Virus record (IMG/VR): IMGVR_UViG_2695420744_000004
Coordinates: 1-13,324 of that record
Strand: one strand, 5' to 3'
Length of the DNA: 13,324 nucleotides
DNA from: a virus
Lineage: Duplodnaviria > Heunggongvirae > Uroviricota > Caudoviricetes
Part shown: positions 2,246 through 4,607 of the stretch, piece after piece
How positions within the stretch are numbered: the stretch's first letter is position 1
How the letters are laid out: every line of letters starts with the position of its first letter
Made by a program: the position numbers and the translations under genes
The notes under the pieces: model-generated
What the model was told of the DNA's origin: nothing
The model's input: only the letters and a program-made list of their open reading frames with translations
Database searches by the model: none

Positions 2246-2352
2246 GCATTCATTTTACATAAAAAAAGTGTAACTAGCACAATCAGCTTAAAGGTGTTGA
2301 TAAACTAACTTTAAAAGTGTATAAATCATGGTGATTCACTGGAGATAACGAT
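2246..2352. promoter_or_regulatory. divergent promoter/operator region (PR-like, and a PRM-like promoter for the repressor)
   Basis: Plus strand: -35 TTGATA (2297-2302), 17-bp spacer, -10 TATAAA (2320-2325) preceded by TG, and GGAGA Shine-Dalgarno 8 nt before ATG 2353. Three AAAG(G)TGT repeats at about 2265, 2290 and 2313, roughly 23-25 bp apart (OR1-3 analogues). Minus strand: TAAAAT at 2257-2252. Confidence 0.6.
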
Positions 2353-2619
2353 ATGCATGAATGTTTAAAAAATAAAATTCACCAAAGAGGGTTATCCCAA
2401 GCAGGTATTGCTCGTTTGATTGGATTACCGCAACAGGTTGTGTCTCGATGGGCTAATGGTCAGCAGGTCCCTGCATCAAGGGTTCTGCAACTTTGTGAGA
2501 TTATGGCGTGGGAGGTTACCCCACACGAACTCCGACCTGATATTTATCCTAACCCAACAGACGGCTTGCCTGCTGAGTTTCAGACTAGCACACAGCCAGC
2601 GACGGGAGTTGATTCATGA
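2353..2619 (+). CDS. ydaS: YdaS-family Cro-like HTH regulator
   Basis: HTH motif SQAGIARLIGLPQQVVSRWANG. Divergent from the repressor and overlaps the downstream ydaT-like start (ATGA). Confidence 0.75.
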   Translation: MHECLKNKIHQRGLSQAGIARLIGLPQQVVSRWANGQQVPASRVLQLCEIMAWEVTPHELRPDIYPNPTDGLPAEFQTSTQPATGVDS

Positions 2620-3041
2620 AAATCAAGCATGAGCACATCCGCATGGCGATGAATGCCTGGGCATATCCTGACGGTGAGAAGGTGCCAGCTGCTGCTATTG
2701 CCAGAGCGTATTTTGAACTGGGGATGACATATCCCGAGTTGCACAACGACGACAGGCACAACGCGCTCTATCTCAACACCCAAAAGATTTTCCGTTGGCT
2801 GGATAAAGACACTCCTGATGCTGTTGAGAAAATTCAGGCATTGTTACCGGCGATCGAAAGGGCAATGCCACCTCCGCTGGTAGCCCGAATGCGCAGCCAC
2901 AGTTCCGCTTATTTTCGGGAGCTGGTGGAGACGCAGGAACGGCTAGTGAAAGATATCGATGATTTCGTTGCATCAGCGATCGTTCTGTTCGACCAGATGA
3001 ATCGTGGTGGTCCTGCGGGTAATTCCGTGGCTGTGCATTGA
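2616..3041 (+). CDS. ydaT: YdaT-family protein (CII-like regulator analogue)
   Basis: 141-aa protein translationally coupled to the ydaS-like gene; synteny with Rac ydaS-ydaT. Family recalled, not searched. Confidence 0.7.
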   Translation: MKIKHEHIRMAMNAWAYPDGEKVPAAAIARAYFELGMTYPELHNDDRHNALYLNTQKIFRWLDKDTPDAVEKIQALLPAIERAMPPPLVARMRSHSSAYFRELVETQERLVKDIDDFVASAIVLFDQMNRGGPAGNSVAVH

Positions 3042-3112: not shown

Positions 3113-4153
3113 ATGGCTAATGCCTGGCTCAGATTATGGCATGACATGCCAAATGACCCTAAGTGGCGAACAATTTCCAGGGTGTCAGGACAGCCAATCG
3201 CAACAGTGATGGCTGTGTATATCCACCTTCTGGTGAGCGCGTCACGAAATGTCACGACATGTCACGGCGTGTCACTACGTGGTCACATTGATGTCACAAC
3301 GGAAGATTTAGCAAGTGCACTTGATGTGACGGAAGAAGTAATTGATTCAATTTTGCAGGCGATGCAGGGGCGGGTGCTTGATGGAGATTTAATCACTGGA
3401 TGGGAAAAACGCCAGGTAGCGAAAGAGGATAACGGCAACGTTTCGCAAACCGCGAAATCCCCGGCAGAGCGTAAGAGAGCACAACGCGAGAGGGAAAAAT
3501 TACGAAAACAGAATGAGGGGTGTCACGATGAGTCACGCATATGTCACGACATGTCACTACGAGTCACGACAGATAAAGATACAGATAAAGAATTAAACCC
3601 CACACATAACGCGCGCGTGCGCGAGAGTGCTCCGACCAGTGAATCGAACGGTACGCCGTTGCAGGCAGCGGAACCTGATTACCAGGAAAGCCTGAGCGAA
3701 CCCATCGGGAAGTTTCCGATGGCCGGTGGCTGGCATCCGTCGCCGGATTTTCGACGGCGGGCTGCACTGTGGGGAGTGGCTCTGCCGGAGCCTGAATTTA
3801 CACCTGCTGAACTTGCCGCCTTCAGGGACTACTGGGCAGCTGAGGGGAAAGTTTTTACGCAGGTTCAGTGGGAGCAGAAATTCGCCCGTCACGTAAATCA
3901 CGTCAGGGCGCAGGTTAAACCAGTCAGCAAGGGGGTGCGTCATGCAGCAGCACCAGGTGGCACCGCATCACGGGCAGTTCGGGAAATTCGGGCAGCACGT
4001 GAGCAGTGGGAACGTGAAAACGGATTTGTCAGCGACGGAAACGGCGTGGAAGCTGTGGGAGCTCATGGGGGAGGTTTATTCAAACCGCTGGACTCAGAAG
4101 AACGGGGCCGCACCTTCGAAGCTCTGGATTGCCCAGATTGGCGCGATGACTGA
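3113..4153 (+). CDS. replication initiator (lambda O analogue) with a C-terminal DnaT-like domain
   Basis: Two iteron clusters lie inside the N-terminal coding region. Residues FPMAGGWHPSPDFRRRAALWGVALPEPEFTPAELAAFRDYWAAEGKVFTQVQWEQKFARHV align with the recalled C-terminal domain of E. coli DnaT (…ALWGVAL…YWQAEGKVFHHVQWQQKLA…). AAGAGG Shine-Dalgarno before ATG 3113. The 3' end is uncertain because the frame overlaps the P-like gene. Confidence 0.7.
   Translation: MANAWLRLWHDMPNDPKWRTISRVSGQPIATVMAVYIHLLVSASRNVTTCHGVSLRGHIDVTTEDLASALDVTEEVIDSILQAMQGRVLDGDLITGWEKRQVAKEDNGNVSQTAKSPAERKRAQREREKLRKQNEGCHDESRICHDMSLRVTTDKDTDKELNPTHNARVRESAPTSESNGTPLQAAEPDYQESLSEPIGKFPMAGGWHPSPDFRRRAALWGVALPEPEFTPAELAAFRDYWAAEGKVFTQVQWEQKFARHVNHVRAQVKPVSKGVRHAAAPGGTASRAVREIRAAREQWERENGFVSDGNGVEAVGAHGGGLFKPLDSEERGRTFEALDCPDWRDD
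3241..3297. repeat. iteron cluster 1: six GTCAC(G) repeats at about 10-bp spacing inside the initiator gene
   Basis: GTCAC cores at 3241, 3251, 3261, 3271, 3282 and 3293. Confidence 0.6.
3521..3597. repeat. iteron cluster 2 (five GTCAC repeats at 10-bp spacing) plus adjacent AT-rich tract: candidate replication origin
   Basis: GTCAC cores at 3522, 3532, 3543, 3553 and 3563, followed by AGATAAAGATACAGATAAAGAATTAAA (3571-3597). Iterons next to an AT-rich region is the lambda ori arrangement. Confidence 0.65.
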
Positions 4154-4607
4154 ACAGCAAATCAGGCTGGTCTGCCGTCAGTGCATGGACCGCTGCCGGG
4201 CGGGTGAAACGTGGCCCCCGGACCTGGCTGAGTTTGTTGCGCTGATTTCGGAGAGTGGGGCAAATCCATTTGGTCTTACGGTGGATGCCGTGATGGAAGA
4301 GTACCGGCGCTGGCGCAATGAATCCTGGCGGTACGACGGGAGTGATAAATACCCGTGGCCACAGCCTGTGCTGTACCACATTTGCCTCGAGATGCGCACC
4401 AGAGGGATTGAACGTCAGATGACTGAAAGTGAGCTGAAACGACTTGCAGAACGACTGTTGACCAAATGGGCAAAGAATGTTGGTAACGGCATGAGTGTTC
4501 CGCCAGTGCGACGACAACTGGAAGGGCCAAAACACCCGCCAGGGCCAACGCCAATTGAGTTACTGAAACAGGAATATGAGCGCCGGAAAGCGGCTGGTTT
4601 TGTCTGA
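3942..4607 (+). CDS. lambda P-like replication protein (DnaB helicase loader)
   Basis: The C-terminal two-thirds align with recalled lambda P (ours YPWPQPVLYHICLEMRTRGIERQMTESELKRLAERLLTKW against lambda YPWKSNAHYWLVTNLYQNMRANALTDAELRRKAADELVHM). Strong AAGGGGG Shine-Dalgarno 6 nt before ATG 3942. A later start at ATG 4065 is possible. Confidence 0.8.
   Translation: MQQHQVAPHHGQFGKFGQHVSSGNVKTDLSATETAWKLWELMGEVYSNRWTQKNGAAPSKLWIAQIGAMTEQQIRLVCRQCMDRCRAGETWPPDLAEFVALISESGANPFGLTVDAVMEEYRRWRNESWRYDGSDKYPWPQPVLYHICLEMRTRGIERQMTESELKRLAERLLTKWAKNVGNGMSVPPVRRQLEGPKHPPGPTPIELLKQEYERRKAAGFV

What the first reader, a model, noticed from the sequence alone, without database searches (positions are those of the whole stretch)
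3241..3597. Two clusters of 10-bp-periodic GTCAC iterons inside the initiator gene
Six GTCAC repeats (3241-3297) and five more (3522-3567) occur at exact one-helical-turn spacing. The second cluster is followed by an AT-rich tract with a duplicated AGATAAAGA. Lambda ori has four ~19-bp iterons in a single cluster, so this geometry differs while the initiator also carries a DnaT-like domain absent from lambda O. Two clusters about 280 bp apart could mean looping or two binding platforms.
Basis: partly seen in the sequence, partly recalled or inferred. Interest (0 to 1): 0.5.

Follow-up and report, generated by a model that had tools for sequence, protein, structure and literature searches.

The report
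Two-part replication origin inside initiator gene
Two arrays of a short DNA word (GTCAC, once per helical turn), written in all three reading frames into a prophage replication-initiator gene, are kept by selection on the DNA itself from E. coli to Bordetella and Pseudomonas. They most likely form a two-part replication origin, a variant of the lambda/SPP1 "origin inside its own initiator gene" design that I could not find described.

Summary
There are six GTCAC at 3241-3297 and five at 3522-3567, all on the + strand, spaced 10-11 bp, falling in all three reading frames. No shuffle came close. A purine-rich AT tract (3569-3598) follows and is the least stable 30 bp of the gene.

In 19 species (locus GC 34-69%), synonymous sites are scrambled elsewhere in the gene. 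Inside both arrays the motif-compatible codon is used in 89-100% of species, so selection acts on the DNA.

Distant homologues carry other words (GAACGC, GTAACG) at the same two places, and always the same word in both arrays. Only the initiator's N-terminal DnaD-like winged-helix domain travels with the arrays. Neighbouring genes and the C-terminal domain are swapped.

- **Array 1** encodes a loop of that domain.
- **Array 2** encodes the disordered linker before the DnaT-like domain.

Best reading: array 2 plus the tract is the core origin. Array 1 is an auxiliary platform for the same protein; five lineages lack it but keep array 2. Binding, unwinding and looping are inferred, not shown.

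This is a new variant of a known kind (lambda O/ori, SPP1 G38P/oriL). The module occurs in 41% of complete E. coli genomes. Interest 0.55.

The parts
3113..4153 (+). Replication initiator gene (346 aa): N-terminal DnaD-like winged-helix domain, disordered linker, DnaT-like ssDNA-binding domain, disordered tail
   Evidence: ORF and translation. PHROG 'replication initiation protein' families phrog_1408 and phrog_3729, E<=1e-90. Pfam DnaT. AlphaFold2 model.
3113..3517 (+). Coding region of the N-terminal domain (aa 1-135): helices 2-14, 16-25, 29-45; hairpin 47-56; helices 63-70, 74-84; wing 85-96; basic helix 117-135. This is the presumed iteron reader.
3241..3297 (+). Iteron array 1: six GTCAC(G) direct repeats at 10-11 bp spacing. 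It encodes aa 43-62, the H1-H2 loop/hairpin of the winged helix.
   Evidence: Family-wide positions 129/139/149/160 of the gene. Codons fixed at 0.89-1.00. The loop has pLDDT about 70 between flanks of 95-98.
3326..3330 (-). Single inverted iteron copy (GTGAC on the + strand), 33 bp after array 1
   Evidence: Present at the equivalent gene position 193 in 16 of the GTCAC-type loci listed.
3522..3567 (+). Iteron array 2: five GTCAC(G) direct repeats in the same orientation. It encodes aa 137-152 of the disordered interdomain linker.
   Evidence: Family positions about 387-419. Codons fixed at 0.89-1.00. pLDDT <50 for aa 144-172.
3569..3598 (.). Purine-rich AT tract (ACAGATAAAGA x2, then ATTAAAC), the presumed DNA-unwinding element. 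It is also the crossover point between the N-terminal and C-terminal modules.
   Evidence: Least stable 30 bp of the gene and lowest GC in the gene. In 40 loci the 30 nt after the last iteron average 80% purine and 71% AT, against 45% AT for the gene. The two sets of megablast hits meet at 3571-3591.
3713..3916 (+). DnaT-like ssDNA-binding domain (aa 201-268)
3942..4607 (+). Lambda-P-like helicase loader ORF. Its start is uncertain: ATG 3942 overlaps the initiator by 212 nt, and an in-frame ATG lies at 4146.
   Evidence: Pfam Phage_lambda_P E=1.5e-15. phrog_109 'P-like helicase loader'. Rac-SA53 ydaV is annotated from the later start.
2254..2283 (+). pR-like promoter candidate upstream of the cro-like (2353-2619), cII-like (2616-3041) and initiator genes. 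Transcription from here would run through the origin (inferred).
   Evidence: Consensus scan only. Gene identities from Pfam YdaS/YdaT.

Best explanation
This is a bipartite, intragenic, iteron-type replication origin of a lambdoid prophage.

Proposed mechanism, with shown and inferred steps marked:
1. SHOWN: two arrays of the 6-bp word GTCAC(G), in one orientation and about one per helical turn, are maintained by selection on the DNA inside the coding sequence.
2. SHOWN: both arrays always carry the same word, even where the word has changed between lineages. This fits one specificity determinant reading both.
3. INFERRED: N-domains bind side by side on one face of the helix and build an O-some-like nucleoprotein complex.
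4. INFERRED: array 2 abuts a purine-rich AT tract (3569-3598). Array 2 plus this tract is the core origin, and the tract is where the duplex opens.
5. INFERRED: the swappable C-terminal module then captures the opened strand and delivers host DnaB. In this window that module is a DnaT-like ssDNA-binding domain plus a lambda-P-like loader.
6. INFERRED: array 1, with one inverted copy, lies 225 bp upstream. It is an auxiliary platform for the same protein that raises local occupancy or loops onto array 2. It is helpful but not essential, because some lineages lack it.

The arrays sit in the two places of the protein that tolerate dictated sequence: a surface loop and the interdomain linker. Array size changes in steps of 21 bp (two repeats, seven codons), which keeps both the reading frame and the helical phase.
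For: - **Arrays and statistics:**
- **DNA-level selection:** in 19 species (locus GC 34-69%), conserved residues with 4-6-fold degenerate codons outside the arrays use their majority codon in 26-56% of species. Inside the arrays the values are A43 GCG 0.89, S44 TCA 0.95, V47 GTC 1.0, T48 ACG 1.0, G57 GGT 1.0, H58 CAC 1.0, V61 GTC 1.0, T62 ACG 0.95. In array 2: H CAC 1.0, S TCA 1.0, R CGC 0.89, V GTC 1.0, D GAT 1.0.
- **Same extended consensus** (GTCAC followed by G in 85% of copies) in both arrays.
- **Covariation of the two arrays:** about 24 loci have GTCAC in both, about 12 have (C)GAACGC in both, and about 6 have GTAACG/GAAACG in both. Lineage-specific oddities are also shared by both arrays: L094 has GTCACGTCACGTCAC and GTCACGTGAC, L105/L109 have GTAACGTTAC, and L117 mixes GTAACGC with GAAACGC. 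Palindromic half-site pairs and the conserved inverted copy point to recognition of double-stranded DNA.
- **Not a host factor:** different words occur within one host genus, for example Pseudomonas L090/L107 versus L114.
- **Only the N-domain co-occurs with the arrays:** the repressor, cro-like, cII-like, C-domain and P-like genes are missing from most GTCAC loci, and only 7 of 37 homologues have a DnaT domain.
- **Tract:** least stable 30 bp of the gene; 71% AT and 80% purine in 40 loci, even where the gene is 32-40% AT.
- **Array 1 is dispensable:** L119, L134, L108, L113 and L123 lack it but keep 2-7 iterons plus the tract.
- **Structure:** array 1 encodes the loop between H29-45 and H63-70, and array 2 encodes the disordered linker. 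The N-domain resembles DnaD-NTD and RepA_N initiators.
- **21-bp step:** relatives have 4 or 6 repeats in array 1.
- **Precedents:** lambda/Stx ori in the O gene with iterons plus an AT tract (PMC7466680); SPP1 G38P/oriL in gene 38 (PMC6316719, PMC5737612); TP901-1 and Tuc2009 organizers that bind repeats in their own genes (PMC8965321).
Against: - No experiment shows binding, unwinding or origin activity, and no paper on this family was found.
- The canonical recognition helix (aa 74-84) does not differ between motif classes. Class-specific residues lie in the iteron-encoded loop, at T73, and in aa 108-124 including the basic helix. The reading surface is therefore unidentified.
- The distance between the arrays is not phase-conserved (258, 260, 278 or 281 bp), which does not favour a rigid loop.
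- Sequences related by descent inflate apparent conservation. The saturated synonymous sites elsewhere in the same genes control for this.
Confidence: 0.75

Rival explanations
1. Array 1 is a negative-control array rather than an enhancer. Initiator bound there would titrate protein, pair with array 2 of a sister copy (handcuffing, as between ori and inc iterons of P1, F or R6K), or block RNA polymerase inside the gene. [quoted passage not shown]
For: Two arrays of the same word, one next to the unwinding tract and one apart from it, match the layout of plasmid ori plus control iterons (from my own knowledge, not tested here). Array 1 lies inside the transcribed gene, upstream of the origin. 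It is dispensable in some lineages. Its copy number varies between close relatives, 4 or 6, as expected for a tuning element. In SPP1, G38P bound at a second site (oriR) is proposed to stall forks (PMC6316719).
Against: Nothing distinguishes positive from negative action in sequence data. L119, which lacks array 1, has the most repeats in array 2 (seven). That looks like compensation for a lost positive element, but it is a single case. This rival shares the core claim (same protein, two platforms) with the best explanation.
Confidence: 0.25
2. The repeats are bound by some other factor: a host protein, or another phage protein such as the cII-like or cro-like regulator. The initiator would then not be the reader.
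For: No binding data exist. The canonical recognition helix of the N-domain does not covary with motif class.
Against: The word differs between prophages of the same host genus. Neighbouring regulators are absent from most loci that keep GTCAC arrays. No DnaA-box or IHF consensus exists anywhere in the window. The arrays and the N-domain are inherited as one block while everything else is exchanged.
Confidence: 0.06
3. The repeats have no function at the DNA level. They would reflect a peptide repeat, an RNA-level signal, or neutral slippage of a 10-bp minisatellite.
For: Copy number changes by repeat units between relatives, as slippage would produce. An invariant Arg-Gly inside the loop shows that some protein-level constraint also acts there.
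Against: The word is read in all three frames. Synonymous positions are fixed only inside the arrays, across genomes of 34-69% GC. The same word occurs in both arrays in every lineage, with at least two concerted switches of word. The conserved inverted copy and palindromic pairs are meaningless on a single-stranded RNA.
Confidence: 0.03

Closest known systems
Phage lambda / Stx-phage O protein and ori-lambda
   Same: The origin lies inside the initiator gene at the boundary between the N-terminal (origin-specific) and C-terminal (loader-specific) domains. Iterons are directly followed by an AT-rich tract. A lambda-P-like loader gene lies downstream, and the replication genes sit behind cro/cII-like genes. 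Iteron number varies between relatives and lengthens the protein: 13 extra residues in Stx O (PMC7466680), 7 here.
   Different: The initiator is not an O homologue: there is no Pfam O-family hit, and the N-domain is DnaD-like. The iterons have a 5-6 bp core repeated every 10-11 bp, not four to six separate, longer iterons (about 19 bp each, from my own knowledge; the number is from PMC7466680). There are two arrays instead of one, and the first lies inside the folded domain's coding sequence. The C-terminal domain here is DnaT-like.
Replisome organizers of Gram-positive phages: SPP1 G38P/oriL, Tuc2009 Rep2009, TP901-1 ORF13
   Same: The organizer binds direct repeats that lie within its own gene, next to an AT-rich DUE. 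A 356-bp oriL supports replication in vitro (PMC5737612, PMC6316719, PMC8965321). G38P also has a second, separate binding region, oriR. NCBI names relatives of this protein 'phage replisome organizer', and there are weak PHROG hits to replisome organizer and DnaD-like families.
   Different: No Pfam match of any kind to the N-domain at E<=0.01, so the relationship is at fold level only. SPP1's second site is kilobases away and outside the gene, whereas here both arrays are about 280 bp apart in one gene. The host range is Proteobacteria, and a lambda-P-type loader is used.
RepA_N plasmid initiators (e.g. pSK41 RepA, PDB 4pta) and DnaD N-terminal domain
   Different: Only 8-14% sequence identity. 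They are plasmids of Firmicutes. A bipartite array is not known to me there. Not tested further.
Iteron plasmids with separate control arrays (P1 incC/incA, F, R6K) and phage P4 ori/crr
   Same: Two clusters of the same initiator-binding word, with only one adjacent to the unwinding region. The known functions are looping, handcuffing or a cis-acting enhancer (from my own knowledge, not tested).
   Different: Plasmid iterons are about 19-22 bp and flank the rep gene. P4's ori and crr are kilobases apart, and its initiator is a primase-helicase. Here both arrays are intragenic and have a one-turn period.

Membership tests
Lambda-type origin (ori-lambda with O protein) | Initiator homologous to lambda O | tested here: not met
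   Pfam finds only DnaT in the initiator. The N-domain fold is closest to DnaD-NTD/RepA_N.
Lambda-type origin (ori-lambda with O protein) | Origin inside the initiator gene, at the interdomain linker, with iterons followed by an AT-rich tract | tested here: met
   Array 2 encodes aa 137-152 of a disordered linker. The tract at 3569-3598 is the least stable 30 bp of the gene.
Lambda-type origin (ori-lambda with O protein) | Four to six iterons of about 19 bp in a single cluster | tested here: not met
   The core is 5-6 bp, repeated every 10-11 bp, in two clusters about 280 bp apart. Lambda iteron number is taken from PMC7466680.
Lambda-type origin (ori-lambda with O protein) | P-type helicase loader encoded downstream | tested here: met
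   Pfam Phage_lambda_P E=1.5e-15 for ORF 3942-4607. This holds for this window but for few homologous loci.
Phage replisome organizer with origin in its own gene (SPP1 G38P, Tuc2009 Rep2009, TP901-1 ORF13; Pfam PF09681) | N-terminal domain matches the family profile | tested here: inconclusive
Phage replisome organizer with origin in its own gene (SPP1 G38P, Tuc2009 Rep2009, TP901-1 ORF13; Pfam PF09681) | Direct DNA repeats inside the gene, next to an AT-rich DUE | tested here: met
   Description of the family feature in PMC5737612 and PMC8965321.
Phage replisome organizer with origin in its own gene (SPP1 G38P, Tuc2009 Rep2009, TP901-1 ORF13; Pfam PF09681) | The protein binds those repeats, and the fragment supports replication | not testable with these tools
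   Needs EMSA/footprinting and an origin-plasmid assay. Only comparative support is available.
Iteron replicons with a separate control array (P1, F, R6K type) | Two arrays of the same iteron, one at the unwinding region and one apart from it | tested here: met
   The same word and the same extended consensus occur in both arrays. Only array 2 abuts the tract.
Iteron replicons with a separate control array (P1, F, R6K type) | Negative copy-number control by the second array (handcuffing or titration) | not testable with these tools
Sequence cannot tell positive from negative action.
DnaT (primosomal protein I) C-terminal domain | Sequence and fold of the ssDNA-binding domain | tested here: met

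The most novel reading that the evidence does not exclude
The loop encoded by array 1 (aa 44-62) might itself be part of the surface that reads the iterons. The binding site and its reader would then be written by the same nucleotides, and a change of word in array 1 would change both site and reader at once. Copying between the arrays would carry the change to array 2. That would be a built-in route to new origin specificities, that is, new replication-incompatibility types.

Support:
- Apart from aa 108-124, the residues that separate motif classes lie in this loop and at T73, not in the canonical recognition helix.
- The window's extra 21-bp block in array 1 (3259-3281) is 87% identical to a block in array 2 (3541-3563). 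These two blocks hold the only two GTCACT variants, which suggests copying between arrays.

Against:
- L119 and L134 have unrelated loops and no array 1, yet keep GAACGC arrays at position 2.
Probability: 0.07. Interest if true: 0.85.

Novelty: new variant of a known kind. Interest (0 to 1): 0.55.

Why it matters
This replication module is in 2214 of 5426 complete E. coli genomes, with up to five copies per genome, and O157:H7 strains are among the hits. It also occurs across Gamma- and Betaproteobacteria. Yet its origin is not annotated in the records I looked at, and I could not find it described.

- **Practical use:** knowing the cis elements gives a direct handle on prophage replication after induction, on incompatibility between co-resident prophages, and on origin-derived interference constructs.
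- **Dual coding:** it is a clean natural case of protein-binding DNA words maintained inside a folded domain's coding sequence. Copy number is quantised at 21 bp to satisfy both the reading frame and the helical phase.
- **Specificity switches:** three motif classes, each matched between the two arrays, offer a ready-made system for studying how an initiator and its sites change specificity together.
- **Mosaicism:** the shared purine tract at the domain boundary explains how the N-domain-plus-origin module is recombined with different loader-recruiting modules.

Tried and rejected
- **Peptide repeat:** rejected, because the word is read in three frames.
- **Chance:** rejected by shuffles.
- **Host-factor sites:** no DnaA box (TTWTNCACA) and no IHF consensus anywhere in the window.
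- **Known RNA elements in the region:** Rfam finds only DicF and two sok copies elsewhere in the window.
- **Promoters and terminators inside the gene:** nothing above the shuffle expectation for promoters. The terminator-like hits are noted under things seen in passing.
- **Pfam/NCBIfam identity for the N-domain:** none. A PDB sequence search finds only DnaT, and weakly.
- **Literature:** searches for iterons with GTCAC, replisome organizer, Eru-type Stx phages, Rac oriJ and ydaU/ydaV found no description of this origin. The r1t organizer paper (PMC136552) is not held.
- **Is the two-array layout a property of the C-terminal DnaT/P module?** No. Rac-SA53 ydaU has the same C-module behind a different N-domain, and shows only one inverted pair (TGTTCAAACA/TGTTTGAACA) before the same purine tract.
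- **Apparent TACGTA repeats in L127/L133:** these code a YVYYV strand of a different fused domain, so they were not counted as iterons.
- **First automatic detection of the purine tract:** it was misled by the purine-rich coding of the basic helix upstream. I replaced it by anchoring on the last iteron.
- **Rigid looping with conserved helical phase:** not supported, because the distance between arrays varies (258-281 bp).
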